Positions 12,985 through 24,091 of a stretch of DNA of 24,091 nt are shown in pieces; the stretch's first letter is position 1, and the number at the start of each line of letters is the position of its first letter. The notes beneath the pieces are model-generated. The model was not told the origin of the DNA. It saw nothing but the letters and a program-made list of their open reading frames with translations, and did not search any database. The DNA is from an uncultured Sandaracinaceae bacterium (GTDB lineage Bacteria > Myxococcota_A > Polyangia > Polyangiales > Houyiibacteriaceae), in contig CAZHPJ010000001.1 in NCBI GenBank assembly GCA_964534585.1, forward strand, positions 1 to 24,091, read 5' to 3'. The position numbers and the translations under genes were made by a program.

Positions 12985-14178
12985 TTACGCCTGAGCGACG
13001 GGTTGCCCGTTGCCCTGTGTCGATTTGCGCTGCCGTTTCAGACCGAAAACCTCCGCCTCGATCTCGAGCTCTTGCTCACCACGCGTCGTCTCGGCCTGCA
13101 GATAGTCTTTCTTCGTATGGTCGACGCGGGTGTAGCTCGCAACGGCATTGAACGCCGCGTTCAACACCGCCGAGAGCGCGGACGTGGAGATGGGGAATGA
13201 GAAACCGACACGATCCGACAGGTGGAAGACCTTGCGGGCGGTGGCTCCCGCGAAGTCGAAGGCGTCGATTCCGAGCTCGGCGAGATCCTCTTCGGCGAAG
13301 GCCACCGCGGGGACGAGCGGCAGGATGAGGCTCAACCGGTGAGCCCGGGCGAAGGGGTTCCTCTTCTGCCACGCGGTCAGTGGAAATTCCTTGAGATAGT
13401 TCGACGGCAGCGCGGTGTGTCGCGATTCGTCCCGGTGAAACAGCCGCAAGACCTCGAGGCCAGGCAGCGTGCTCATCATTCCGAACAGGCCTAGTGCGAA
13501 TCCCTCTACCACCACGTTCATGGCGAAGAACTTTTCGACTCCCTTCGATTTGAAGCCGCGTTCGAGCAACAGGTACTCCCAGATGGGCATCCGCGGAATC
13601 TCGCACTCGAAGGCTTGGAGCAGCTCGCGCAGAACGACGAAGTGCTTCGCTTCCTCTAGGACCTGCATCGTGAGCGCACCACGCGCCCCGGTACTCTTGA
13701 CCTCGTTCAGCAGCTCCGTAGAGACGAGCCAGGCGTAGGCCTCGCCGTGCCCGATGAGGGAGAGCACGTTGACGATCGCCTGCCGTTCACGTTCCGTGTA
13801 CTCGCTCATGATCTTGTCGCGGAACTCCTGGCTGCGAACCCGCTTGAGCTCCCGCAGCTCGTCCCGGTCCATGGACTTCTCAGCCATGCTCAGGAGGGTG
13901 AGCTCCTCCATCGTGCAGTCGCGGAAGTCGAGCCAGGGAGCCTGCTCCTCGGCCTTCCAGAGCAGGCGCATGCTCTTGTCGTAGTGCTTCTTGCGGAGCT
14001 GATCCTTGGCGCCGCCGTTGAACTCGTAGTGGATATCGTCGTAGTCGCCCTTGCGGCCCCCGAGATGGAGACGCCCCATCACCCCGTCGTAGCCTCGGAC
14101 TACGCTATTTACGACCTCTTCGACGCGGCGCTGGATCTTCGCGCTTTGCGGGTTGAGCTCGATCTTCTCGAATTCCAT
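12985..14178 (-). CDS. Ferritin-like diiron-carboxylate protein of unknown function
   Basis: Ligand pattern E146 / E176xxH179 / E225 / E251xxH254; ATG with GGAGG SD. Confidence 0.8.
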   Translation of the reverse strand: MEFEKIELNPQSAKIQRRVEEVVNSVVRGYDGVMGRLHLGGRKGDYDDIHYEFNGGAKDQLRKKHYDKSMRLLWKAEEQAPWLDFRDCTMEELTLLSMAEKSMDRDELRELKRVRSQEFRDKIMSEYTERERQAIVNVLSLIGHGEAYAWLVSTELLNEVKSTGARGALTMQVLEEAKHFVVLRELLQAFECEIPRMPIWEYLLLERGFKSKGVEKFFAMNVVVEGFALGLFGMMSTLPGLEVLRLFHRDESRHTALPSNYLKEFPLTAWQKRNPFARAHRLSLILPLVPAVAFAEEDLAELGIDAFDFAGATARKVFHLSDRVGFSFPISTSALSAVLNAAFNAVASYTRVDHTKKDYLQAETTRGEQELEIEAEVFGLKRQRKSTQGNGQPVAQA

Positions 14179-14274
14179 GGGCGTCCTCCGTGCACTTCGA
14201 CGCCGAGGTCGTCTCGGGCCTCTCCTGCTCTACTCGCAGCTTGCTCTCCAGGAAGTCGGATGCACAGGTGGAAG

Positions 14275-14302
14275 CCGGACAACGATTGGTCATTTCCGGC
14301 CA
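14275..14302 (-). promoter_or_regulatory. Candidate AraC-family tandem site (21-bp period)
   Basis: Minus strand TGGCCGG...TGTCCGG; the two heptamers (14302-14296 and 14281-14275) are 21 bp apart, upstream of the ferritin-like gene. Confidence 0.3.
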
Positions 14303-14380
14303 CAGCCGCCCTGCGGTCGGCCGCACCGCCTCCAGCGGAATCCTCGCGTCAGACGGGCGCTGCGCGCTACGATTGCGGCC

Positions 14381-16222
14381 GTGACTCACACGCGCAGGCG
14401 CGTCAGCCGACTCATTCGCGACGCGATCGCCCGTTTCGAGCTCGACCTGACCGATATGACCGTTCTGACCGAGGCGGCCACGGGCTACTACGCGTCAACG
14501 CCAGTCATTGCGGCGCTGGCCGGAGCCAAACGGGTGCTCGCGCTTGGACGGGACTCCCGATACGGGACTTTGGCCGAGGTGGAACGCTCCATTCGTTCCG
14601 TCGCAACGGAGCTTGGTGCCTTGGCTCCGATCGAAATCCTCCATGATCGATCCGACTCGATCATCGCCGGAACGGACATCGTCACGAACCTCGGCTTTGT
14701 GAGGCCCATCGACGAACCACTACTGTCCAAGTTGGGATCACAAGCTGTCGTCTCACTGATGTGGGAGACGTGGGAACACCGGCCGGAGGAAGTCGATCGA
14801 GACGCTTGCACACGCCTGGGCATTGCGATCCTCGGAACCGACGAGAACGACGAACGGTTGCGGACGCTAGACTATACCGGTCTGATTGCGGCCAAGCTTC
14901 TTTTGCAGCTCGACGTGGAGCTGCTGCGCTCGCGCGTTGCGTTGATCGGTAGCGGGGACTTCGCACGCAGCGTCATCGACAAGCTTGGAGGCCTTGGCGC
15001 ACAGGTCGACTGGATCGATGAAAGAGACCTCGAAGGAAAGGCCGCAACCGAGGTGCTCGAGTCGGCCGACGCCCTCGTGATCGCGATGGCCACGGGCCGA
15101 GAAACCTTGATTGGCGAATCTGGAGTTTTGAGCGCCGAGCAACTCGCACGGCTGAACCCTGACCTAGCGGTCGCCCACATCGCGGGCGGAGTCGATCGGG
15201 ACGCACTGGCAAGACATGGCCTTCGCTGCATGCCTGAGCGTTTTGCGGCCCCCCCACACATGAGCGCGGCCACGGATTATCTCGGACCGAAGCCGGTCAT
15301 CGATCTCCACACGGCGGGCTTGAAGGTCGGCGAGGCGCTCGCTCGTGCCCGCCGCGCAGGAATGGATGCCGAGCAAGCGCAGACCCACGTGCTCGAGCAC
15401 TCGCCGCTCGCGATGGCCTTTGACCTGCCTCCGCGCACGCCTCACCCGGCCGATGCGTTGCGTGCCCGAATACCCCGGCTCCGAGCAATGGTCTGTCTGA
15501 CGATCGACATCGACTGGGCCCCCGACTTCATCATCGACTACGTGCGGGAAACGTTGATCGAACGCGGCGTGCGCGCGACGTTCTTCATAACCCACGAGAG
15601 CCCCGCGTTGCGGCGATTGAAAGATCGCCCCGACCTATTCGAGCTCGGCATCCACCCTAATTTCTTGCCCGGGTCCACCCAAGGCAAGAGCATCGGCGGT
15701 GTACTCGAGCACTGCATGGCTTTGGCCCCGTCGGCGACCAGCATGAGGACGCACTGCCTGCATCAATCGACACCGATTCTTCAGCAAGTGATCACAGATA
15801 CGCCAATCGATACCGATGTCTCTCTACTCATGTCAGCGATTCGACCCCTCACGCCATTCGAGCACCGCTACGGCGACGGCTCGTTGCTGCGCATCCCCTA
15901 CGGTTGGGAGGATACGTTCTCCATGGAGTCTCGGGACATGAGTCGCCCCCCGATCGATCCAGCCTCCACCGGCCTGCAGGTGCTGGCGTTTCATCCGATC
16001 CACATCTACCTCAACTCCGCCTCGATGGATGACTACACCCGACTCAAGGCGCGAGTTGGTGATCTTGCAAAGGCCGGCATCGCCGAAGTCGACGAAGTAG
16101 TCCGGCAGGGCTTCGGCATCCGCTCGCGCTTCTTACACGTGGTCCGTCAATTGCAGGCCAGCGGTCGGTCTACCATGATTCGCGACGTCCGTCCGCACCT
16201 CCTACCGAGCCCGCCATCATGA
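14381..16222 (+). CDS. Fusion protein: divergent D-2-hydroxyacid-dehydrogenase-like Rossmann region plus WbmS-like polysaccharide deacetylase (NodB-type) domain
   Basis: N-part: DACTRLGIAILGTDE and RVALIGSGDFARSV, resembling the 2-HADH hinge and NAD loop. C-part from M at 15488: LTIDIDWAPD, ATFFITH, ELGIHPNF, SMRTHCLHQS, LAFHPIHIYLN. Start reassigned to GTG 14381, because the track's 14153 overlaps the divergent gene. Confidence 0.72.
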   Translation: MTHTRRRVSRLIRDAIARFELDLTDMTVLTEAATGYYASTPVIAALAGAKRVLALGRDSRYGTLAEVERSIRSVATELGALAPIEILHDRSDSIIAGTDIVTNLGFVRPIDEPLLSKLGSQAVVSLMWETWEHRPEEVDRDACTRLGIAILGTDENDERLRTLDYTGLIAAKLLLQLDVELLRSRVALIGSGDFARSVIDKLGGLGAQVDWIDERDLEGKAATEVLESADALVIAMATGRETLIGESGVLSAEQLARLNPDLAVAHIAGGVDRDALARHGLRCMPERFAAPPHMSAATDYLGPKPVIDLHTAGLKVGEALARARRAGMDAEQAQTHVLEHSPLAMAFDLPPRTPHPADALRARIPRLRAMVCLTIDIDWAPDFIIDYVRETLIERGVRATFFITHESPALRRLKDRPDLFELGIHPNFLPGSTQGKSIGGVLEHCMALAPSATSMRTHCLHQSTPILQQVITDTPIDTDVSLLMSAIRPLTPFEHRYGDGSLLRIPYGWEDTFSMESRDMSRPPIDPASTGLQVLAFHPIHIYLNSASMDDYTRLKARVGDLAKAGIAEVDEVVRQGFGIRSRFLHVVRQLQASGRSTMIRDVRPHLLPSPPS

Positions 16223-18177
16223 CGTTGGCTCCCGTCATCGCACAGGCCATTCGCATCCGGGCCTTCGAAAGCAAATTGCTCGAGCTCTTCGGCGAGGACG
16301 CTTTCTCGGGAACGGTGCACACCTGTATCGGCCAAGAGCTGTGTGCCACCGCGCTCGCTCCCCATCTGGACATCGGACGAGACGCATTCGTGGCAACCCA
16401 CCGCGGTCATGGACACTACCTCGCCTTAGGTGGACCACCAGACGCGTTGCTTGCCGAGCTCATGGGTCGGGAAGGCGCCCTTTGTCGCGGCCGTGGCGGA
16501 TCCCAACATCTGTGCCACCGAGGCTACATCAGCAGCGGCGTGCAAGGCGGTACGCCTCCGTTGGCGGTCGGGCTGGGCTGGGCGCGAAAGCTCAGAGGCA
16601 CGGACGCCATCGCCGTTGCACAAGTGGGTGACGGCACGTTCGGGGAGGGCGCGCTCTACGAGGCCATGACCTTCGCCGCATTGTGGAGCGTGCCCGTGCT
16701 CTTCTTGGTCGAGTACAACGGCATTGCGATGACCACCGACGTTGCAACGACCACGCCGGGGGATCTAGAAAAGCGTATCGCGGGCTTCGGTGTGGGCTAC
16801 GACCGCCGTTCGGACATGGAGCCAGAGGCGCTACACGCGCACATGGGCGAAGTCGTCTCGCGGGTGCGAGCCGGTCAGCCGTTCATGCAGATCATCGACA
16901 CGCGTCGACTGGCAGCCCACAGCAAAGGGGACGACACTCGGCCCCCCGAAGTCATCGCTGCCCTGCAGGCCCGTGATGCGGTGCAAGACGTTCTAGATTC
17001 CGATCCGGAAGCGGCCGCGCTCATGGGACGCTACGCCAAGGAGGTAGGCCGGCTTGCCGGCGAGGTGCGGGAGCGACCGCTGATCCCCTTTGAAGATGGT
17101 CCGGTGCTTCCACGGCCGTCCCCATGCGACCACACGGCTTCGGAGCCACCGGGCGGTGACGTCCGAATCGTTCAGCGCCTCAACGCTGAGCTCCATCGCA
17201 TGATGGACCAAGACCCCTCGATCGTGGTCATCGGCGAAGACCTGGCCGATCCATACGGGGGCGCATTCAAGGTCACACGCGGTCTATCCGCTGCACACCC
17301 GGAGCGGCTCTTCAACACACCGATTTCCGAAGCTGCCATCGTGGGCGTTTCCAATGGACTGGCCCTTGGCGGTGCTCGCCCGATCGCCGAGATCATGTTT
17401 GCCGACTTTGCTTTTCTGGCGGCGGACCAGCTGATCAACCACGCAGCCAAGTTCCACTACACGTACGCCGCTCAGGTCACTTGTCCGCTGACGTTGCGTT
17501 TGGTCTCCGGCGGCGGACGCGGCTACGGGCCCACCCACAGCCAGTGCACGGAGCTAGCGTTTTGCGGCATTCCAGGGCTCCGGGTCTTGGCGCTGTCCCA
17601 TCGACATCCGCCGGAGCGGCTGCTGCGCGCGGCAGTCTACGACGATGCGCCGACGATTTTGGTCGAACACAAGGCGCTCTATGGTCTCTTCCCACCGCAA
17701 GAGCCGCCGCTTGATCTGACGCGGTGCGAGACTTCGGACGAAGCAGGCGAGCCACTGCCCGAATATGCGCCCTTGTGTTTCGCACCCCTGGACGATGAGA
17801 GGGCGGATGTCACCCTCGTGACCTACGGCGGAACGGCACCGATCGTCGAGGAGGCCATGCGTGAGCTCATCCTCCAAGACGAGCTCCGCTTCGAGTACAT
17901 CATTCTCACGCAACTTTGGCCGCTACACGCCGCGCCCATCGTGGCGGCAGCTCATCGCACCAGACGTCTAGTGATCGTGGAAGAAAGTGTTGCGACGTTC
18001 GGCTTGTCGGCGGCCATCGCCGCCGCAGTGGCCCAATCGCCCGGGCCCCAGGTAGCGATTGGGTCTGTTGGCGCCGCGCCTGTTCCGATTCCGTGTGCAC
18101 GTCATCAGGAATCCTCTACGCTGCCAACGACTCGATCGATCGCTGACAAGGTTCGATCCATGATGCGCAGCGAGTGA
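16219..18177 (+). CDS. Fused alpha+beta E1 component (ThDP-dependent 2-oxoacid dehydrogenase / transketolase-like)
   Basis: Alpha: GTVHTCIGQE, THRGHGHYLA, GRGGSQH, ThDP motif GDGTFGEG...VEYN, RRLAAHS. Beta: GEDLADPYGGAFKVTRGL, NTPISEAAIVG, EIMFADF, GYGPTHSQ. ATGA overlap with the upstream gene. Confidence 0.92.
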   Translation: MTLAPVIAQAIRIRAFESKLLELFGEDAFSGTVHTCIGQELCATALAPHLDIGRDAFVATHRGHGHYLALGGPPDALLAELMGREGALCRGRGGSQHLCHRGYISSGVQGGTPPLAVGLGWARKLRGTDAIAVAQVGDGTFGEGALYEAMTFAALWSVPVLFLVEYNGIAMTTDVATTTPGDLEKRIAGFGVGYDRRSDMEPEALHAHMGEVVSRVRAGQPFMQIIDTRRLAAHSKGDDTRPPEVIAALQARDAVQDVLDSDPEAAALMGRYAKEVGRLAGEVRERPLIPFEDGPVLPRPSPCDHTASEPPGGDVRIVQRLNAELHRMMDQDPSIVVIGEDLADPYGGAFKVTRGLSAAHPERLFNTPISEAAIVGVSNGLALGGARPIAEIMFADFAFLAADQLINHAAKFHYTYAAQVTCPLTLRLVSGGGRGYGPTHSQCTELAFCGIPGLRVLALSHRHPPERLLRAAVYDDAPTILVEHKALYGLFPPQEPPLDLTRCETSDEAGEPLPEYAPLCFAPLDDERADVTLVTYGGTAPIVEEAMRELILQDELRFEYIILTQLWPLHAAPIVAAAHRTRRLVIVEESVATFGLSAAIAAAVAQSPGPQVAIGSVGAAPVPIPCARHQESSTLPTTRSIADKVRSMMRSE

Positions 18178-18190
18178 CACCAGGAGGCCC

Positions 18191-19252
18191 ATGTCGATAC
18201 CACACGAGATCGTCGTCCCGCGCCTCAACGTCGCCGATTCGACCCTTCGTTTGGTCAAATGGACCGTCCGCAGCGGCGAGCGCGTCGAGCCCACCACGGT
18301 GATTGCGATCCTCGAGACCAGCAAGGCAACCTTCGAGATGACTGCCGAAACCGGTGGTCATCTGCATCATCTGGCGGACATCAACGAAATCGTCAGTGTC
18401 GGGCAGACCATCGCGCTGCTTACCGACAGCCCCGAGGTACCCGATACCACGGACCATAGTGCATCGACGCTCACCATCGAAATCGCAGGGGAGGGTCCCG
18501 AGATCAGCGAAAAAGCCCGCCCCCTGATGGCGCAACATGGTTTGACCGGAGCGGACTTCCCGGGACGATCGGTCGTGCGAAAGCAAGACGTAGAAGCGCT
18601 CGTTGCGACCGGACCAGGCGATCAGAAAGCCAAGCGCGAGCTCCGTTTCGGCGACGAAGTCTTCGATCTCGATGAGGAATGGGACGCCGCGCTCGCCTCG
18701 GAACACTATCAACAATTGCGTGCCACGCTCACGAAGCTGAGGCGGCGCATGAAGGCGCGCTTCGACCGACACGTATCGACGGGCGAGTTGCTCTACGACC
18801 GATGGGACATGGCTCGCGACCACGGCTTCGGTGAGGGCTCATCGATCTATGATACGTGCCTGCTGCTCGGAGACGTTCGAGTAGGCAAGCACTGCTGGGT
18901 GGGTCCCTTCACGGTGCTCGATGGCGCGCACAGCCCTCTGGAAATCGGAGACTACTCTTCGATCGGAAGCGGCACCCAGATCTACACGCACAATACGATT
19001 CAGCACGTTCTGACGGGCGGCCAACAAGAGGCTTTCCATGAGCCCACGCAGATCGGACGTTGTGTTTTCGTCTCTCCGATGTGCGTCATCGGGGCGGGTA
19101 CCGCCATCGGCGACCATAGCTTCGTCGCTGCAGGCAGCTACGTCGAAGGCCGCTTTCCATCACATAGCTACATCGCCGGAAATCCAGCGACGAAAATCGG
19201 TCGAGTGGTCGTTGAGGGTGATCGTGCGCACCTCTTCCGCAAGCGGCGATGA
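18191..19252 (+). CDS. Lipoyl domain + E3/E1-binding (PSBD-like) domain + left-handed beta-helix (hexapeptide) acyltransferase
   Basis: Lipoyl motif LETSK45A; PSBD-like ISEKARPLMAQHGL...RKQDVEAL (aa ~105-137); hexapeptide repeats VRVGKHCWVG, LEIGDYSSIGSGTQIYTH, TQIGRCVFVS, TAIGDHSFVAAGS, IAGNPA. AGGAGG SD. Confidence 0.85.
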   Translation: MSIPHEIVVPRLNVADSTLRLVKWTVRSGERVEPTTVIAILETSKATFEMTAETGGHLHHLADINEIVSVGQTIALLTDSPEVPDTTDHSASTLTIEIAGEGPEISEKARPLMAQHGLTGADFPGRSVVRKQDVEALVATGPGDQKAKRELRFGDEVFDLDEEWDAALASEHYQQLRATLTKLRRRMKARFDRHVSTGELLYDRWDMARDHGFGEGSSIYDTCLLLGDVRVGKHCWVGPFTVLDGAHSPLEIGDYSSIGSGTQIYTHNTIQHVLTGGQQEAFHEPTQIGRCVFVSPMCVIGAGTAIGDHSFVAAGSYVEGRFPSHSYIAGNPATKIGRVVVEGDRAHLFRKRR

Positions 19253-19394
19253 CGAGCGACTCGCACGGTCGCCATCGATCGGGACGGACGGCAAAGGGGG
19301 CCTTTCGTCCCACCAGCCGCAGCCGCTAGGGCTTTTCGGGCCTCAGGAGCCACTCGGCCAGTTTCTTTGTTGTAGTCCGGGCCGATTGCCTATA

Positions 19395-19428
19395 CCGTTC
19401 CTGTACTGACCGGCCAGTACAGGAACGG
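19395..19428. promoter_or_regulatory. 34-bp near-perfect palindrome, candidate TetR operator, abutting the tetR start
   Basis: CCGTTCCTGTACTG-ACCGGC-CAGTACAGGAACGG: 14-bp perfect arms, ending 5 nt before ATG 19434 and overlapping the GGAG SD. Confidence 0.7.
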
Positions 19429-19433
19429 AGTGG

Positions 19434-20138
19434 ATGCCTAAGAGGACCCCATCACCAAGTCCGCAACCCCGCGGAACCCAGTCGATTCAGCGAATTCTCG
19501 ATGCGGCGGCCAGCCTCTTTGGAACCGAAGGCTACCGCGGCGCTTCGATGACGGCAGTGGCCGAGGCAGCCGGTGTCTCTAAGAGCCTGCTGCACTACCA
19601 CTTCCAGGGCAAAGAGCACCTGCTCTTCGAGGCACAACAGGCCGCGTATCGAAGAATCCATCAACACTTTCAAGCTCGATTCAGCCAAGGTGAACGAGGC
19701 ATCGACACCGCCCTCGAAGCGCTCGATGCCCTGTGGCAAGCCGTTCATGACATGCGCGCCTGGGCGCCGTTCATGATCGAAACGATGAGCTTGGCCTCGC
19801 AGAACGAGCGCGTCCACCAACTGGCCCAGAACTTTCTCGATGAGTCGACGGCCCTTCTCGAGAGTGGCGTCACCCAAGTGTTCAAAGACGAGCAAGCCCG
19901 ACTCATCGCTACACCCGAGCGAGTAGCCCGCGTCGTACGAGCATGCATTCAGGGCCTCATCGTCGAGCTATCGCTCGCAAGAACCGAAGAAGACCTGCGC
20001 AACGTCGAAGGGATGTACCAGGACATGAGGAATATGTTCGAACGCGCCGTCCTCTCTAGTGCCGGCCAATCGGCAACGCCACGCCCTGTCGATTCAGTGG
20101 AGCTCGCGACTCGGACCATCGAGGAGAACGCATCATGA
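19434..20138 (+). CDS. TetR/AcrR-family transcriptional regulator
   Basis: RILDAAASLFGTEGYRGASMTAVAEAAGVSKSLLHYHFQGKEHL HTH. Confidence 0.93.
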   Translation: MPKRTPSPSPQPRGTQSIQRILDAAASLFGTEGYRGASMTAVAEAAGVSKSLLHYHFQGKEHLLFEAQQAAYRRIHQHFQARFSQGERGIDTALEALDALWQAVHDMRAWAPFMIETMSLASQNERVHQLAQNFLDESTALLESGVTQVFKDEQARLIATPERVARVVRACIQGLIVELSLARTEEDLRNVEGMYQDMRNMFERAVLSSAGQSATPRPVDSVELATRTIEENAS

Positions 20139-21118
20139 CTCAGCCAATTCTGCCCAAGAAATTTCAGCCCACCTCATTCGGCGAAATCGCCTATCTGGAG
20201 ACCGGTTCGAGCGACCGGCCACCGGTGTTGCTGATTCACGGCATCCCGACCTCAGGGTTCCTCTGGCGCAATGTGATGCGCTACCTGCAAAACGATTTTC
20301 ACTGCTACGCCCCGGACCTCATGGGGCTCGGCGATACCCGGGTCGATCCGGAAACGGCAGAGTTCGACATGGAGGCTCAGGCCGAAATGCTGGCGTCTTT
20401 CATGAGCGCGCTGGGGCACGAGGAGTTCGTCGTCGTGTGCCATGACCAAGGCGGTGCCGCGGCACAGATCCTCGCCGCGCGCGTTCCGCAGCGCATCCGC
20501 TGCATGGTCTTCACCGACTGCGTTTGTTACGACAACTGGCCGGTGCCGGCGATCATGCAGCTGCAGGCCATCTCCCGTGTGCCGCTGCTGCCTGACCTGC
20601 TGAATCGAAGCGGAGCGATGGCCTGGTTGGAGACGAAGACCCGATTCTCGAACTTTCGCAAGGGCGTCCACAATCCGAGCCGGCTGAGCGACGAAACGAT
20701 CCACGAGTATCTTCGGCCGCTACAGGAGAACCGCAAACGTCGTGAAGCCTTTCGCGCATTTCTCCTCGCCGGGCATCCCCGCTACACGCTCGCGGCGGTG
20801 AGCGGGCTCAAGGCCTTCCACAAACCGACCATGGTGATCTGGGCAGCGGATGACGTCTATCTATCGCCGTCGTGGGGATTGAGGCTGATGGAGGACATCC
20901 CGGGCGCAGAGCGATTCGAGCTGGTCTCTTTTTGCGGCCACTTCTGGCAAGAGGAACGCCCGGCCGAATTCGCAGGGAAGATCGGCGCATTTCTGACCGA
21001 TGTGCTCTCGCGGGAAGTCCCGGAAGAGGCGGACGCGACGAAGTCCGCGCCAGCGGATGAGAAGAAGGGAGCCCTCTCCAACAAGAAGCTCCCGGTAGTG
21101 ACCCAAGAGGTTGGCTGA
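20135..21118 (+). CDS. Alpha/beta hydrolase, Asp-nucleophile class (haloalkane dehalogenase / epoxide hydrolase-like)
   Basis: HGIPTSGFLWR, APDLMGLGD, nucleophile CHDQGG, His base GHFWQEE; ATGA overlap with tetR. Confidence 0.88.
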   Translation: MTQPILPKKFQPTSFGEIAYLETGSSDRPPVLLIHGIPTSGFLWRNVMRYLQNDFHCYAPDLMGLGDTRVDPETAEFDMEAQAEMLASFMSALGHEEFVVVCHDQGGAAAQILAARVPQRIRCMVFTDCVCYDNWPVPAIMQLQAISRVPLLPDLLNRSGAMAWLETKTRFSNFRKGVHNPSRLSDETIHEYLRPLQENRKRREAFRAFLLAGHPRYTLAAVSGLKAFHKPTMVIWAADDVYLSPSWGLRLMEDIPGAERFELVSFCGHFWQEERPAEFAGKIGAFLTDVLSREVPEEADATKSAPADEKKGALSNKKLPVVTQEVG

Positions 21119-21153
21119 ACACCACCCAATCGCGACGAAGAGAGGAAGAGGCG

Positions 21154-23004
21154 ATGCTAGCCAATGAGATTCTGCTAACGACACCGACCTATCCTTACCC
21201 AACCCTGCCGGCCAATGATTCGTTGACCGACGCGACCGGGCAGCGCTTCACCAAGGGCGACAACGTCTTCACGATGGTCTCCCACACCCATTGCTTCGCC
21301 AATCACATTCTCGCGCAAAACGTGCGGACCCCGGTGGTGGTAATGGAGTACCCCCGGTGGGACGATTTCAAGGCGGAAGTCGACAAGGGCTATCCGGTGA
21401 TCGGCATCAGCACCTATCCGGTCCACTTGGCCCGGGTACTCGAGATGTGTGAGTACATCCGCAACCGCTCACCAGCGACCAAGATCCTGCTCGGCTCCCA
21501 TGGGGGCATGGCCTTTCGGTCCGTGTACGACAAGGACACGCAACGCAAGTACGTCGACCGCGTCGTGCATGGAGAGGGCGTGCGGTTCTTGCGCCGTTTC
21601 CTCGGGGAGACCGATATCGACCGACCGATCCGCCAGGCCCTGATGCCCAAGGCGGGGGGTGCGCCACCGTTCATGAGCAAGTACCCCGTCGGCAATATTG
21701 CGTTCCTCGTCTCCGGACTGGGTTGCATCGGCGGCTGCGATTTCTGTTCCACTACGGCGCTCTTCGATCAACACCGGACCGAGCTACTTTCCCCCGCCGA
21801 GCTGGTGGAGCACATCCGGCTCTACCACGACCATTTCCCCTCGGTCAGCCAGGTCTTCGTGATCGAAGAAGATCACTTCCGTTACCCCAAGTACCTCGAG
21901 GGCGTCCGCGAGTTGTGGATGGAGCAGCCCAAGATGATGGAGCAACTCGACTGGTTTGCTTTCGGTTCGATCGACTTCATCGGCCGCTACGCCGACAAGT
22001 ATGGATGGGATGCGCTTGCCGAGACCGGGATCGGCACCATCTTCATCGGGGTCGAATCGAAGTTTGCTGGGGAGCACGGCTACAAGAAGCGCAAAAGCGC
22101 GAACGCTCAGGAGGTGTTCCAGAAGCTCCACAGCATAGGCATCCGCACCGTGGGCGCCTGGATGTGTGGCTTCGACTTCCACAACCATGCGAACGTGACG
22201 GAGGACCTGAACTACCTGGTCTCGCTCTATCCGACCTACCAGCAGCTGACCCGGGTTTCGCCGCTCCCCGGCACGGCGTTGTGGGCACGCATGAATGAAG
22301 AGAATCGCGTCCGCGATGTGCCCTGGGAAGACGTACATTTTTGGAGCAGTGCGCTCAAGAACACCAACTTCGAGCCCCATGAAACTCTGAACATCACAGA
22401 GTACGGCTACGATCTCCTGTACCAGACCTGGGGTCCTTCGATTCTCCGGCGATTGGACGTGCAGCTGTCGGGCTACGACTTCTGCCGCCGCTCGCCCAAC
22501 CCGGTCCTGCGACGCCACAAGGCACTCTTCTTCAAACGCCAGTGCGCGATGCTCTGGACGAACCTCTACGGAATGGACCGTTTCGCGCCCAACGGCGTCG
22601 TTCGACGACGGGTCCGCAAGATCGACGAGAAGTACCGCGCGCTGCTCGGCGAACCCACGCCGGTGATGAAGGCCCTTGCGCGACTGATGGATGTCGCGGT
22701 GACGGGCGCGAAGGTGACGGAGTTCTTCGACTCGATGAACCGGCACCCAAAGGAAGAGCCCTATCACCGCTACGTCTACAAGAACAATGGCGAGAGCGAC
22801 AGCGCGATTCCATATCACAAGGAGTGCCCGACGCCCCGCACGCGGGCCGTGCGGCGAGGGATGGCACGGGAAGCACTTCAACGTCGATCGATGGCGATGG
22901 GACTGAAAGCCAGCAAGGTCGTTGGTTGGCGGGACGGCGATCCGGCGATCGACGATTTTTTGGTGAACATGGTGGAGAGTGGTCGAGTGGGGTTCGGCTT
23001 CTAG
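21154..23004 (+). CDS. Radical SAM protein with N-terminal cobalamin-binding-like domain, function unknown
   Basis: CxxxCxxC (GCIGGCDFC); N-terminal Rossmann-like segment (VIGIS...KILLGSHG...VVHGEG); FIGVES, GFDFH and SPLPGTALW, as seen in B12-dependent radical SAM enzymes. Confidence 0.85.
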   Translation: MLANEILLTTPTYPYPTLPANDSLTDATGQRFTKGDNVFTMVSHTHCFANHILAQNVRTPVVVMEYPRWDDFKAEVDKGYPVIGISTYPVHLARVLEMCEYIRNRSPATKILLGSHGGMAFRSVYDKDTQRKYVDRVVHGEGVRFLRRFLGETDIDRPIRQALMPKAGGAPPFMSKYPVGNIAFLVSGLGCIGGCDFCSTTALFDQHRTELLSPAELVEHIRLYHDHFPSVSQVFVIEEDHFRYPKYLEGVRELWMEQPKMMEQLDWFAFGSIDFIGRYADKYGWDALAETGIGTIFIGVESKFAGEHGYKKRKSANAQEVFQKLHSIGIRTVGAWMCGFDFHNHANVTEDLNYLVSLYPTYQQLTRVSPLPGTALWARMNEENRVRDVPWEDVHFWSSALKNTNFEPHETLNITEYGYDLLYQTWGPSILRRLDVQLSGYDFCRRSPNPVLRRHKALFFKRQCAMLWTNLYGMDRFAPNGVVRRRVRKIDEKYRALLGEPTPVMKALARLMDVAVTGAKVTEFFDSMNRHPKEEPYHRYVYKNNGESDSAIPYHKECPTPRTRAVRRGMAREALQRRSMAMGLKASKVVGWRDGDPAIDDFLVNMVESGRVGFGF

Positions 23005-23014
23005 GAGCTCTGGC

Positions 23015-24091
23015 GTGCACCACCAACAACAGATCATGCCGTTCGCCTCGCTACTTGGCCAAGAGAAGGTCAAGCGGGCTTTGTTGATGCTTGGCGTGAA
23101 TCCGCGACTCAACGGCGCGCTCCTGCGCGGCGAAAAAGGCACGGCCAAATCGACGGCAGCCCGAGCCCTGGCCTCCCTGCTGCCGTCGATCGAGGTCAAT
23201 CAGGGATGCCACTTCGGCTGCCGAAGCGATCGCCCAGCAACCTGGTGCGCAGAATGCCAACGCCGCTCCGACCGAACCGTCGTTGAACGTCGCCCACCGT
23301 TTGCAACGCTGCCACTGGGCATTACGGAAGATCAGCTCTTGGGCACGATCGATTTGGAACGGGTGCTTCAACAAGGCGAGCAACGCTTCAAGCCGGGATT
23401 GCTGGCGCGGGTGAACCACGGTGTGCTCTACGTGGACGAGATCAATCTGCTGGACGACCACATCGTCGATCTGCTCCTGGACTCGGCGGCGATGGGCGTC
23501 AACGTGGTCGAACGGGAGGGCATCTCGGCTACTCACCCCGCAGACTTCCTCTTGGTCGGCACGATGAACCCGGAGGAAGGAGTGCTGCGCCCGCAGCTAC
23601 TGGATCGCTTCGGGCTTTGTGTCGAAGTAACCGCGTCACGGGACGCCTCCGAACGGGCCGAGATCATCGACCGATGCCTGGCGTTCGAGCGCGATCCTGT
23701 TGGGTTCACCCAAGCCTATGCCGAGACCGACGCGGCGCTGTCTGAACAGATCCGGCAGGCCCGGGAGTTGCTCCCTGCCGTCGAGGTGGACCCGAGCTGG
23801 CTGACCACGGTCGCCGAGCTCTCGCTTGCGCTCGGCGTCGACGGGCACCGCGCCGACATCCTCATGATCAAGGCGGCCCAGACGCTCGCCGCATTGGATG
23901 GACGGACCGCGATCCACTCTGACGACATCGAGGTTGCGACGGAGGTCGTCTACGCGCACCGATTGCGCCGTCGACCGTTCGACGATCAGGCCCAGGGCGA
24001 CGAGAGCTTCCGCGAAACGGTCCGCGAGGTCGTCGGACGGCGGGAAAAAAAAAAGGAACCGCAGGGAGAAGTCCAACGTCGGACGGGAAGG
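23015..24091 (+). CDS. Mg/Co-chelatase AAA+ subunit (ChlI/ChlD family); runs off the window end
   Basis: Not in the ORF track (no stop). GTG 23015 with AGGAG SD. My translation: MHHQQQIMPFASLLGQEKVK...LLRGEKGTAKSTAARAL...LPLGITEDQLLGTIDLE...PGLLARVNHGVLYVDEINLLDDHIVDLLLD...GTMNPEEGVLRPQLLDRFG...GVDGHRAD...AHRLRR. Confidence 0.92.
   Translation, partial: MHHQQQIMPFASLLGQEKVKRALLMLGVNPRLNGALLRGEKGTAKSTAARALASLLPSIEVNQGCHFGCRSDRPATWCAECQRRSDRTVVERRPPFATLPLGITEDQLLGTIDLERVLQQGEQRFKPGLLARVNHGVLYVDEINLLDDHIVDLLLDSAAMGVNVVEREGISATHPADFLLVGTMNPEEGVLRPQLLDRFGLCVEVTASRDASERAEIIDRCLAFERDPVGFTQAYAETDAALSEQIRQARELLPAVEVDPSWLTTVAELSLALGVDGHRADILMIKAAQTLAALDGRTAIHSDDIEVATEVVYAHRLRRRPFDDQAQGDESFRETVREVVGRREKKKEPQGEVQRRTGR
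24045..24055 (+). other. Candidate programmed -1 frameshift / transcriptional slippage site (A10, A_AAA_AAG)
   Basis: Ten consecutive A (24045-24054) read GAA AAA AAA AAG in the chelatase frame, immediately after the AAA+ domain. Confidence 0.65.

What the first reader, a model, noticed from the sequence alone, without database searches (positions are those of the whole stretch)
18191..19252. E2-like protein whose catalytic core is replaced by a hexapeptide-repeat acyltransferase
Seen: lipoyl domain (ETSK45A, a variant of ETDKA), acidic linker, PSBD-like segment, then an LbH domain with the YTH His. Established: E2 subunits end in a CAT-like alpha/beta acyltransferase that forms 24- or 60-mers, while LbH enzymes are trimeric and use acyl-CoA. 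Inference: a trimeric mini-complex in which the lipoyl arm itself is the acyl donor, with PSBD recruiting E1 or the housekeeping E3 for re-oxidation.
Basis: partly seen in the sequence, partly recalled or inferred. Interest (0 to 1): 0.8.

Follow-up and report, generated by a model that had tools for sequence, protein, structure and literature searches.

The report
Lipoyl-armed sugar N-acyltransferase with own E1
This gene fuses the lipoic-acid "swinging arm" of a pyruvate-dehydrogenase-type E2 to a sugar N-acetyltransferase instead of the usual E2 core and always sits behind its own E1 enzyme, which suggests an undescribed way of putting acyl groups made from 2-oxoacids onto amino sugars without coenzyme A.

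Summary
ORF 18191-19252 (353 aa, AGGAGG before the ATG) has four parts: a lipoyl domain (Lys45 in ETSKA), a disordered acidic linker, a 37-residue PSBD-fold domain, and a hexapeptide beta-helix acyltransferase (His267).

It is not an assembly artefact. More than 250 full-length relatives with the same architecture occur in Myxococcota, Planctomycetota, Acidobacteriota, Verrucomicrobiota and Alphaproteobacteria. K45 and H267 are invariant in 121 of 121.

A fused E1 alpha-beta gene lies directly upstream in 22 loci. It is absent from all 36 loci of the stand-alone acyltransferase relatives. The closest solved relative of the beta-helix part is Pcryo_0619, an acetyl-CoA-dependent amino-sugar N-acetyltransferase. 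Several fusion loci carry the same amino-sugar pathway genes as the stand-alone enzyme.

Substitutions specific to the fusions cluster after the catalytic His, which I take to be the donor side.

In this window the pair follows a WbmS-like deacetylase fusion, so an N-acetyl to N-acyl swap is plausible.

The mechanism is inferred: E1 loads lipoyl-K45, the arm delivers the acyl group to the beta-helix site, and a housekeeping E3 re-oxidises it. I found no paper describing it. Earlier notes of this scan report the same kind on other DNA, mostly with PglD/NeuD-type beta-helices.

The parts
14381..16222 (+). First gene of the cassette, with two domains. The N-terminal ~355 aa belong to an uncharacterised family with a faint resemblance to 2-hydroxyacid-dehydrogenase NAD-binding domains. 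The C-terminal part (from about 15488) is a WbmS-like polysaccharide deacetylase domain. The start codon is uncertain: GTG 14381 or ATG 14456.
   Evidence: Pfam WbmS-like E 1.4e-53 and weak 2-Hacid_dh_C. PDB 3hft WbmS E 1.5e-29. Candidate starts. The same two-domain protein sits beside E1 in L103, L104 and L105. The N-domain occurs alone in O-antigen clusters. Atlas lead only.
16219..18177 (+). Fused E1 alpha-beta (652 aa), a thiamine-diphosphate 2-oxoacid dehydrogenase component. Its ATG overlaps the upstream stop by 4 bases.
   Evidence: Pfam E1_dh 12-250, Transket_pyr 321-488, Transketolase_C 524-641. Below cut-off for every NCBIfam PDH/BCKDH equivalog. PDB relatives are BCKDH and PDH E1 subunits. 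GDG..N, H234, H440 and E371 are invariant in 18/18 family members.
18182..18187 (+). Shine-Dalgarno AGGAGG before the ATG at 18191.
   Evidence: Sequence read directly.
18203..18424 (+). Lipoyl domain (residues 5-78). The predicted lipoyl-lysine K45 has its codon at 18323-18325, in the motif ETSKA.
   Evidence: Pfam Biotin_lipoyl. All NCBIfam matches of this part are E2-type or E1-beta-linked lipoyl domains. The model is confident here. Foldseek matches E2 lipoyl domains and also BCCPs. K45 is present in 121/121. Translation.
18425..18499 (+). Flexible linker rich in Asp and Glu (residues 79-103).
   Evidence: pLDDT below 50 for residues 87-100. Variable in alignment A1.
18500..18610 (+). Domain with the peripheral-subunit-binding-domain (PSBD) fold (residues 104-140): helix, loop, helix. 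A109, R130 and D133 are (near-)invariant.
   Evidence: hhalign P 3.5e-5. AF2 pLDDT 86. VIA-align: 7 of the top 8 matches are PSBDs. Foldseek ranking. PDB profile hits. Conservation in 121 sequences. No Pfam E3_binding hit.
18611..18679 (+). Second linker (residues 141-163).
   Evidence: pLDDT below 50 for residues 143-148. Length-variable in A1.
18680..19249 (+). Acyltransferase part (residues 164-353): N-terminal helices followed by a left-handed beta-helix. The catalytic His267 has its codon at 18989-18991 (YTHNT). The fusion-specific motif E319-G320 replaces N-[K/R] of the stand-alone enzymes.
   Evidence: PDB 8vr6 (Pcryo_0619 N-acetyltransferase) E 3.2e-35 over residues 189-335. Pfam Hexapep. 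H267 is present in 121/121. Group-specific columns. Translation.

Best explanation
Genes 14381-19252 form a three-gene cassette for CoA-independent N-acylation of an amino sugar.

Proposed steps:
1. The fused E1 alpha-beta decarboxylates a 2-oxoacid on thiamine diphosphate.
2. E1 reductively acylates the lipoyl group on K45 of the downstream protein.
3. The acyl-dihydrolipoyl arm, on its flexible linkers, swings into the active site of the protein's own beta-helix domain, which is presumably trimeric. There it takes the place that the pantetheine arm of acetyl-CoA occupies in the stand-alone relatives.
4. His267 acts as general base, and the acyl group ends on the amine of a sugar, most likely nucleotide-linked.
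5. The small PSBD-fold domain docks E1 and/or a housekeeping dihydrolipoyl dehydrogenase (E3), which re-oxidises the arm.

In this window the free amine is probably made by the WbmS-like deacetylase domain of the first gene. The net result would then be replacement of an N-acetyl group by another acyl group. In other genomes a DegT aminotransferase supplies the amine.

Shown: the architecture, the conservation, the E1 linkage, the homology to a sugar N-acetyltransferase, and the pathway context.

Inferred: lipoylation, direct lipoyl-to-amine transfer, the identity of the 2-oxoacid and of the sugar, and the partner of the PSBD.
For: 1. Architecture and invariant K45/H267.
2. A fused E1 alpha-beta lies directly upstream on the same strand in 22 of the 25 fusion loci examined. 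Of the other three, L103 has it 5 kb away, in L105 the contig ends inside E1, and L061 has no room upstream. It is found in 0 of 36 loci of stand-alone beta-helix relatives.
3. The E1 keeps the ThDP motif GDG..N, the beta-subunit Glu371, and both His residues (H234 in HSKGDD, H440 in THSQ) in 18/18 family members. From my own knowledge, these His residues correspond to those used for reductive acylation of lipoamide in canonical E1.
4. The beta-helix part matches Pcryo_0619, solved with CoA and with acetyl-CoA, at E 3e-35.
5. The stand-alone relatives sit after GFO/WlbA-like, small LbH, DegT, SDR and DegT genes. This fits the 4-N-acetylation step of a 2,3,4-triamino sugar such as the one in the P. 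cryohalolentis O-antigen (PMC8040287). Fusion loci L003, L051, L053 and L054 carry the same genes, with the E1-fusion pair in that slot.
6. The fused beta-helices form one clade, with no stand-alone sequence inside it.
7. Columns conserved in both groups split as follows. Up to H267 there are 25 identical and 4 conservatively different columns. After H267 there are 10 identical and 8 different. The differences include N268 (D in stand-alone), FVA311-313 (VIG) and E319-G320 (N-[K/R]). This fits a retained acceptor site and a remodelled donor site.
8. No E3 gene and no E2 catalytic domain was found within 10 kb of the fusion loci by tblastn. The genome does have two E3 genes, LipA, one BPL/LplA/LipB-family gene and two canonical E2s.
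9. The PSBD fold of residues 104-140.
10. The deacetylase-E1-fusion cassette recurs in L104, and split or cut in L103 and L105.
Against: - Nothing biochemical was tested. Lipoylation of K45 is inferred only from the sequence context and the E1 linkage.
- The beta-helix domain closely resembles an acetyl-CoA-dependent enzyme (E 3e-35 to Pcryo_0619), so it may still bind acyl-CoA. I could not map the fusion-specific substitutions onto CoA contacts, because no coordinates were available. That reading rests on the general position of CoA on the C-terminal coils of beta-helix acyltransferases, which is my own knowledge.
- The PSBD assignment fails all direct sequence-family tests. It rests on a predicted structure with Z below 5.
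- No E3 is encoded with the module in any locus.
- The clade support for a single fusion event is only 0.63, with midpoint rooting.
- The 2-oxoacid cannot be assigned. The E1 is below the cut-off of every PDH and BCKDH model.
- In this window no nucleotide-sugar genes flank the cassette, so the acceptor is less certain here than in other loci.
Confidence: 0.6

Rival explanations
1. A miniature 2-oxoacid dehydrogenase that still works through CoA. The beta-helix domain plays the E2 role and moves the acyl group from dihydrolipoyl-K45 to CoA. Alternatively, it simply uses acyl-CoA from the pool, with the lipoyl arm and E1 supplying acyl-CoA locally. The sugar would then be acylated by the classical CoA-dependent reaction.
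For: The beta-helix domain is closely related to an acetyl-CoA-dependent enzyme solved with CoA and acetyl-CoA. The catalytic His and most core residues are shared with the stand-alone enzymes. One related locus (L105) has a separate 2-oxoacid_dh catalytic-domain gene just upstream.
Against: No beta-helix enzyme is known to me to catalyse lipoyl-to-CoA transfer. Making acetyl-CoA locally would be pointless in cells that have canonical complexes. The fusion-specific changes lie after the catalytic His, including Glu-Gly in place of Asn-[Lys/Arg]. The covalent tether of arm and beta-helix in over 250 proteins argues for direct hand-over.
Confidence: 0.17
2. The chemistry is the same (lipoyl arm as acyl donor), but the acceptor is not a nucleotide amino sugar. 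It could be a hydroxyl group (O-acylation), an undecaprenyl-phosphate-linked sugar, or another amine-bearing metabolite.
For: In this window no DegT, dehydratase or glycosyltransferase genes flank the cassette. In L103 a GT2 and a PMT/GT-C-type transferase lie between the fusion and the deacetylase-E1 genes, which recalls lipid-linked sugar modification. NCBIfam also gives weak matches to maltose and galactoside O-acetyltransferases.
Against: The closest solved relative by far is an N-acetyltransferase (E 3e-35, against 5e-10 for maltose O-acetyltransferase). Many fusion loci are next to DegT aminotransferases. A deacetylase that frees an amine is the cassette partner here.
Confidence: 0.13
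3. The N-terminal domain is not a working cofactor carrier. It would be a degenerate or purely structural module that docks E1 to the acyltransferase, and E1 would act as a decarboxylase or carboligase whose product is used in another way.
For: The Pfam score of the lipoyl domain is modest (30 bits). The Asp of the usual DKA motif is replaced by Ser or Thr.
Against: The Lys is invariant in 121/121, as is the surrounding E-T-[TSA]-K motif. This would not be expected for a mere scaffold. E1 keeps both His residues associated with lipoamide acylation. The genome has the lipoylation machinery.
Confidence: 0.07

Closest known systems
Dihydrolipoamide acyltransferase (E2) of pyruvate, 2-oxoglutarate and branched-chain 2-oxoacid dehydrogenase complexes
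   Same: An N-terminal lipoyl domain with the lysine at the beta-turn, a flexible linker, a PSBD-fold domain, and a partner E1 of the alpha/beta type encoded directly upstream. NCBIfam SucB and PDH-E2 profiles align to residues 6-191.
   Different: The CAT-like 2-oxoacid_dh catalytic core (PF00198), which builds 24- or 60-mers and transfers the acyl group to CoA, is absent. A left-handed beta-helix acyltransferase stands in its place. The PSBD loop is shorter and escapes Pfam E3_binding. No E3 gene is linked. The E1 alpha and beta subunits are fused.
Pcryo_0619 N-acetyltransferase of Psychrobacter cryohalolentis K5 (PDB 8vr6, 8vr7, 8vrm) and its stand-alone relatives
   Same: Strong homology over residues 189-335 (E 3.2e-35), the same catalytic His, the same N-terminal helices, and the same amino-sugar pathway neighbours in several loci.
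   Different: The stand-alone enzymes are about 180-200 aa, have no lipoyl or PSBD part and no E1 neighbour (0 of 36 loci). They were solved with CoA and acetyl-CoA. The fusions differ at conserved positions after the catalytic His.
AcoC of acetoin dehydrogenase systems (NCBIfam PRK14875)
   Same: A precedent for an E2-like protein that keeps the lipoyl arm but has a non-CAT catalytic domain. The PRK14875 profile aligns to residues 5-113 here (E 4.9e-10).
   Different: From my own knowledge, the C-terminal part of AcoC is an alpha/beta-hydrolase fold and its acceptor is CoA. Here the C-terminal part is a beta-helix sugar N-acyltransferase.
QncN/QncL/QncM-type systems of tetrahydroisoquinoline antibiotic biosynthesis
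   Same: A ThDP E1-like enzyme loads a two-carbon unit onto a lipoyl arm, and the unit is passed to a biosynthetic acceptor rather than into central metabolism.
   Different: There the E2-like protein has the normal CAT-type domain and the acceptor is an acyl carrier protein. Here the domain is a beta-helix and the likely acceptor is a sugar amine.

Membership tests
E2 dihydrolipoamide acyltransferase (2-oxoacid dehydrogenase complexes) | Lipoyl domain with a conserved lipoyl-lysine | tested here: met
   Pfam Biotin_lipoyl at residues 8-76. K45 is present in 121/121. All NCBIfam matches of this part are E2 or E1-linked lipoyl domains. Lipoylation itself was not tested.
E2 dihydrolipoamide acyltransferase (2-oxoacid dehydrogenase complexes) | Peripheral-subunit-binding domain (Pfam E3_binding) | tested here: inconclusive
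   No Pfam hit, and the family profile does not find the genome's own PSBDs. However, hhalign gives P 3.5e-5, and the predicted fold matches PSBDs first among 48,161 chains, with Z up to 4.8.
E2 dihydrolipoamide acyltransferase (2-oxoacid dehydrogenase complexes) | CAT-like catalytic core (PF00198, 2-oxoacid_dh) | tested here: not met
   No PF00198 hit at E<=10. The C-terminal 190 residues are a hexapeptide beta-helix homologous to 8vr6.
Left-handed beta-helix amino-sugar N-acetyltransferases of the Pcryo_0619 type | Hexapeptide repeats and sequence homology to the solved enzyme | tested here: met
   Hexapep E 3.6e-14. 8vr6 E 3.2e-35 over 147 residues.
Left-handed beta-helix amino-sugar N-acetyltransferases of the Pcryo_0619 type | Catalytic histidine in the Y-[TS]-H motif | tested here: met
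   H267 is invariant in 121 fusions and in 31 stand-alone relatives.
Left-handed beta-helix amino-sugar N-acetyltransferases of the Pcryo_0619 type | Acetyl-CoA as acyl donor | not testable with these tools
   Fusion-specific substitutions after the catalytic His hint at a changed donor site. No ligand-contact mapping was possible.
Left-handed beta-helix amino-sugar N-acetyltransferases of the Pcryo_0619 type | Homotrimer with active sites between subunits | not testable with these tools
   Only a single-chain model could be made.
2-oxoacid dehydrogenase multienzyme system (E1+E2+E3) | Dedicated ThDP-dependent E1 with intact catalytic motifs | tested here: met
   Pfam domains. GDG..N, E371, H234 and H440 are invariant in 18/18. 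E1 is adjacent in 22 of 25 fusion loci.
2-oxoacid dehydrogenase multienzyme system (E1+E2+E3) | E3 (dihydrolipoyl dehydrogenase) available | tested here: inconclusive
   None within 10 kb of any of the 25 fusion loci. Two E3 genes above the TIGR01350 cut-off lie elsewhere in this genome.
Biotin carboxyl carrier proteins | Biotinyl-lysine in an M-K-M context, with carboxylase or carboxyltransferase partners | tested here: not met
   The motif is E-T-[TSA]-K-[AST]. The partners are E1 genes, not carboxylases. The genome's true BCCP-type domain lies elsewhere, beside a carboxyl transferase.

The most novel reading that the evidence does not exclude
The module is a general, CoA-free acyl-installing device. 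A dedicated E1 turns a 2-oxoacid other than pyruvate (for example hydroxypyruvate, 2-oxobutyrate or glyoxylate) into an acyl-lipoyl thioester. A beta-helix transferase then places the acyl group directly on a sugar amine. With the fused deacetylase this would swap N-acetyl for a rarer N-acyl group (glycolyl, propionyl or formyl type) on a cell-surface glycan. The same lipoyl-PSBD arm has been joined to several different beta-helix classes, so this would be a whole hidden branch of glycan tailoring chemistry.
Probability: 0.4. Interest if true: 0.85.

Novelty: new variant of a known kind. Interest (0 to 1): 0.72.

Why it matters
Lipoyl swinging arms are known to hand acyl groups to CoA (E2 cores) or, in a few antibiotic pathways, to carrier proteins. 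Sugar N-acyltransferases of the beta-helix type are known to take acyl groups from CoA or ACP thioesters.

A protein that tethers the arm to such a transferase, with its own E1, would link 2-oxoacid metabolism directly to glycan decoration. It could explain where some unusual N-acyl groups on O-antigens and capsules come from.

It would also be a small and tractable model of substrate channelling: a trimer instead of a 24- or 60-mer. And it would be a possible tool for installing non-natural acyl groups on sugars from cheap 2-oxoacids.

The family has hundreds of members in soil, sediment and groundwater bacteria. Where a source names them at all, the names are generic ("acetyltransferase-like isoleucine patch superfamily enzyme", "biotin/lipoyl-containing protein", "hypothetical protein").

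Tried and rejected
- Assembly artefact, or a missed stop or frameshift. Rejected: the ORF is intact, has a strong ribosome-binding site, and has over 250 full-length homologues, including 353-aa orthologues at 86-90% identity.
- PSBD by sequence families. Pfam E3_binding gave nothing for this protein or for 30 relatives. A family HMM of the segment did not retrieve the genome's two real PSBDs among 31,271 ORFs. An HMM of 31 real PSBDs scored family members only weakly. The PSBD reading therefore rests on the profile-profile and predicted-fold evidence.
- Biotin carrier. Rejected on motif and partners. A second weak Biotin_lipoyl hit in the genome (contig C276) is an ordinary C-terminal biotinyl domain beside a carboxyl transferase, not a second fusion.
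- A dedicated E3 or E2 core near the module. None was found by tblastn in 25 fusion loci.
- Literature. Eight successful searches (PDB codes, gene name, WbmS, lipoyl plus hexapeptide, amino sugar or nucleotide sugar, Bordetella wbm) found no description of the fusion. Two further calls failed on term length. The Pcryo_0619 structure paper is not in the library.
- Substrate of E1. It could not be assigned. It is below the cut-off for all PDH, BCKDH and acetoin models, with the alpha part nearest PDH and the beta part nearest BCKDH-type subunits.
- Function of the N-terminal domain of the first gene. There is no PDB sequence relative. The Atlas gives only unnamed clusters and a 0.78 lead to 2-hydroxyacid dehydrogenases.
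- Promoter and terminator scan of 13900-19700. It gave nothing above shuffles.
Full report
**The observation**

The ORF at 18191-19252 on the + strand is intact and encodes 353 residues. AGGAGG lies at 18182-18187, and the upstream gene's TGA is at 18175-18177.

Pfam finds a Biotin_lipoyl domain at residues 8-76 (E 4.5e-7) and hexapeptide repeats at 286-320 (E 3.6e-14).

An AlphaFold2 model built on 30 homologues (mean pLDDT 76.5) shows:
- a confident lipoyl barrel (residues 1-78);
- a disordered stretch (87-100);
- two helices at 109-116 and 131-140;
- a second disordered stretch (143-148);
- a long helix (164-191);
- the beta-helix.

**The PSBD-like segment**

This was the least secure part of the observation, so I tested it several ways.

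Sequence-family tests fail. Pfam E3_binding gives no hit for this protein at E<=10, nor for any of 30 relatives at E<=1. A profile of the segment does not find the two genuine PSBDs of the same genome.

Other evidence is consistent:
- A profile-profile alignment against 31 genuine PSBDs taken from genomes of the same phylum gives P 3.5e-5 and probability 72%. A reversed control gives P 0.21.
- Three of the six PDB sequences that a profile of the segment finds are isolated PSBDs, aligned over their whole length, each at E about 1.
- A separate model of residues 101-143 has pLDDT 86 and a helix, 3-10 turn, helix layout.
- An all-against-all structural search of 48,161 chains gives PSBDs as seven of its eight best matches. 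The best is the E3-binding domain in 2f5z, with Z 4.8 and rmsd 2.0 A over 39 of 43 residues.
- Foldseek ranks PSBDs first as well, although without significant E-values.

I accept a PSBD fold with a shortened loop. What it binds is open.

**Real and widespread**

A search of 5.8 billion proteins gave 260 hits. The 120 listed are 329-387 aa, cover 94-100% of the query at 44-90% identity, and nearly all carry Biotin_lipoyl plus Hexapep.

In a collection of species-representative genomes, 21 full-length copies were found. They come from Myxococcota, Planctomycetota (Gemmataceae, Isosphaeraceae, Rubripirellula), Acidobacteriota, Verrucomicrobiota (Didemnitutus) and Hyphomonadaceae. All are metagenome-assembled genomes. 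The nearest, at 86% identity, is a "Deltaproteobacteria bacterium" from a sediment bin.

In 121 aligned sequences K45, H267, A109, R130, R193, D203, R204, W236 and Y265 are invariant.

The gene was not found in 18 other genomes of the same genus or in 12 more of the order. It is an accessory gene here.

**The partner E1**

The gene directly upstream (16219-18177) overlaps the preceding stop by four bases. It is a single-chain fusion of E1 alpha (E1_dh) and E1 beta (Transket_pyr, Transketolase_C).

By tblastn, 24 of the 25 fusion loci examined carry a full-length homologue. In 22 it lies on the same strand and ends shortly before the fusion gene. The exceptions are:
- a contig with no room upstream (L061), which has no hit;
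- a locus with E1 5 kb away (L103);
- a contig that ends inside E1 (L105).

None of 36 loci of stand-alone relatives of the beta-helix domain has one.

The E1 family keeps the following in 18 of 18 sequences:
- the ThDP motif GDG...N;
- the beta-subunit Glu (PISE);
- the alpha-loop His (HSKGDD);
- the beta-subunit His (THSQ).

From my own knowledge of E1 mechanisms, the two His residues correspond to those that act in the reductive acylation of lipoamide. The E1 therefore looks able to load a lipoyl arm.

Its substrate cannot be named. It is below the cut-off of all PDH, BCKDH and acetoin models. It is about equally related to BCKDH-type and PDH-type subunits of known structure.

**The acyltransferase part**

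The best solved relative by far is Pcryo_0619, annotated in the PDB as an N-acetyltransferase of Psychrobacter cryohalolentis K5. It was crystallised with CoA and with acetyl-CoA. The match is E 3.2e-35, with 147 residues aligned.

Stand-alone relatives (about 165-210 aa) sit in a recurring gene order: small beta-helix acetyltransferase, GFO/IDH/MocA oxidoreductase, DegT aminotransferase, SDR, second DegT, then this acetyltransferase. A HisH/HisF-like pair often follows. That is the layout expected for a 2,3-diacetamido sugar that receives a third amino group and a third N-acetyl group. The P. cryohalolentis O-antigen does contain 2,3,4-triacetamido-2,3,4-trideoxy-L-arabinose (PMC8040287). The assignment of Pcryo_0619 to that step is my inference.

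Fusion loci L003, L051, L053 and L054, and the P0012 contig, carry the same DegT, SDR and GFO genes, with the E1-fusion pair in the acetyltransferase slot.

In a tree of the beta-helix domains, the 30 fused sequences form one clade with no stand-alone sequence inside. Support is 0.63 with midpoint rooting.

I compared columns that are conserved in both groups:
- Up to the catalytic His: 25 identical and 4 conservatively different.
- After it: 10 identical and 8 different.

The differences after the His include N268 (D in stand-alone), T286 (V), C291 (N), F293 (Y), F-V-A 311-313 (V-I-G) and E319-G320 (N followed by K or R in 17 of 31).

In beta-helix acyltransferases the CoA lies along the C-terminal coils; this is my own knowledge and I did not check it on coordinates. 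On that basis the pattern fits a kept acceptor site and a remodelled donor site. This is suggestive, not decisive.

**The cassette in this window**

The first gene (14381 or 14456 to 16222) joins two parts:
- An uncharacterised domain of about 355 aa. It has no Pfam family, no PDB relative, and only a faint 2-hydroxyacid-dehydrogenase-like signal.
- A WbmS-like polysaccharide deacetylase domain (Pfam E 1.4e-53; PDB 3hft E 1.5e-29).

The same two-domain gene precedes the E1 gene in three other metagenomic loci. In L104 all three genes overlap or abut. In L103 the fusion gene lies 2.5 kb upstream of the deacetylase-E1 genes, with a GT2 and a PMT-type glycosyltransferase between them. In L105 the contig ends inside E1.

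No aminotransferase lies near the cassette here. The free amine for the transferase is therefore most simply supplied by deacetylation. If so, the new acyl group should differ from acetyl.

The N-terminal domain occurs by itself in hundreds of proteins. In the three contigs I looked at, it sits in O-antigen-type clusters beside AsnB-like amidotransferases.

**Cofactor supply**

The genome is a MAG of 3.27 Mb in 632 contigs, 87% complete. It encodes:
- two canonical E2s with genuine PSBDs;
- two E3 genes above the TIGR01350 cut-off, one of them with its own lipoyl domain;
- LipA;
- one BPL/LplA/LipB-family gene.

Lipoylation and re-oxidation are therefore possible in trans. No E3 or E2 core lies within 10 kb of any fusion locus by tblastn.

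**A wider family**

An exhaustive profile search of 1.84 billion representatives gave about 25 full-length clusters at 50% identity. It also gave many proteins of 330-530 aa that match strongly only over the lipoyl-PSBD part (residues 3-150) and weakly over the rest.

Four I examined more closely (P0310, P0328, P0340, P0359) have the same arm but a different beta-helix class, with best matches to DapD_Ac, WcaF and WbbJ-type models and weaker ones to NeuD. P0310 is only 28% identical overall. The arm has thus been combined with several acyltransferases.

Earlier notes of this scan describe the same kind of module on other genomes, mostly with PglD/NeuD-type beta-helices. One has a PIG-L deacetylase and proposes an acyl-swap reading. 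These are unchecked AI notes. What I tested here was tested independently on this family.

**Interpretation**

The best reading (confidence about 0.6) is a CoA-independent route:
1. E1 loads an acyl group from a 2-oxoacid onto lipoyl-K45.
2. The tethered arm delivers it to the beta-helix site.
3. H267 activates a sugar amine.
4. A housekeeping E3 re-oxidises the arm.
5. The PSBD-fold domain docks E1 and/or E3.

The main rival is that the transferase still works through CoA. Lesser rivals are a non-sugar or hydroxyl acceptor and a non-functional arm.

**Comparison with what is known**

The protein is not an E2 by membership, because the defining CAT-like core is absent. It is homologous to a beta-helix N-acetyltransferase, but its acyl donor cannot be tested with these tools.

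I found no description of the architecture in the searchable literature. That library omits many subscription papers.

I class it as a new variant of a known kind: a 2-oxoacid dehydrogenase-type swinging arm rewired to a glycan-tailoring transferase.

Noticed in passing
window 14381-15460: The N-terminal ~355 aa of the first cassette gene belong to a large uncharacterised family: hundreds of stand-alone proteins of 340-375 aa, 45-53% identical, with no Pfam family and no PDB relative. In the three contigs examined they sit in O-antigen-type clusters next to AsnB-like amidotransferases, DegT, SDR, and beta-helix or ATP-grasp genes. There is a faint resemblance to 2-hydroxyacid dehydrogenase and DpaA NAD-binding domains.
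   Followed up: partly
P0310, P0314, P0328, P0340, P0344, P0359: Sister subfamilies carry a very similar lipoyl plus PSBD-like arm. Their beta-helix domain is of a different class (best matches to DapD_Ac, WcaF and WbbJ-type models, weaker to NeuD), and some have an extra ~150 aa. The arm seems to have been recombined with several acyltransferases.
   Followed up: partly
L105:7195-8076: In one related metagenomic locus, a separate 293-aa protein with only the 2-oxoacid_dh (E2 catalytic) domain lies just upstream of the deacetylase-E1 genes. This might mean that some versions also pass the acyl group to CoA.
   Followed up: no
L103:4264-11696: Here the fusion gene is separated from the deacetylase-E1 genes by a GT2 and a PMT/GT-C-type glycosyltransferase on the other strand. 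This arrangement recalls undecaprenyl-phosphate-linked sugar modification systems.
   Followed up: no
L088:6805-8054: In a Spirochaetota MAG, a WbmS-like protein (28% identical to the C-terminal domain of the first cassette gene) directly follows a stand-alone relative of the beta-helix acyltransferase. The deacetylase-acyltransferase pairing therefore also exists without the lipoyl arm.
   Followed up: no
G000 contig C591:2-1513: One of the genome's two dihydrolipoyl dehydrogenase genes has an N-terminal lipoyl domain in the same 516-aa frame.
   Followed up: no
window 18191-19252 versus relatives: The fusion gene was not found in 18 other genomes of the same genus or in 12 further genomes of the order. 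It is an accessory, probably horizontally acquired gene, although the base composition of the cassette is not unusual for the window (GC 0.61-0.64).
   Followed up: partly
window 8588-11191, 19434-24091: The flanks hold a glycyl-radical enzyme (PFL-like plus Gly_radical) next to a TetR gene, an SDR and an aquaporin. Downstream there is a TetR gene, an alpha/beta-hydrolase and a B12-type radical SAM protein. I saw no functional link to the cassette.
   Followed up: no
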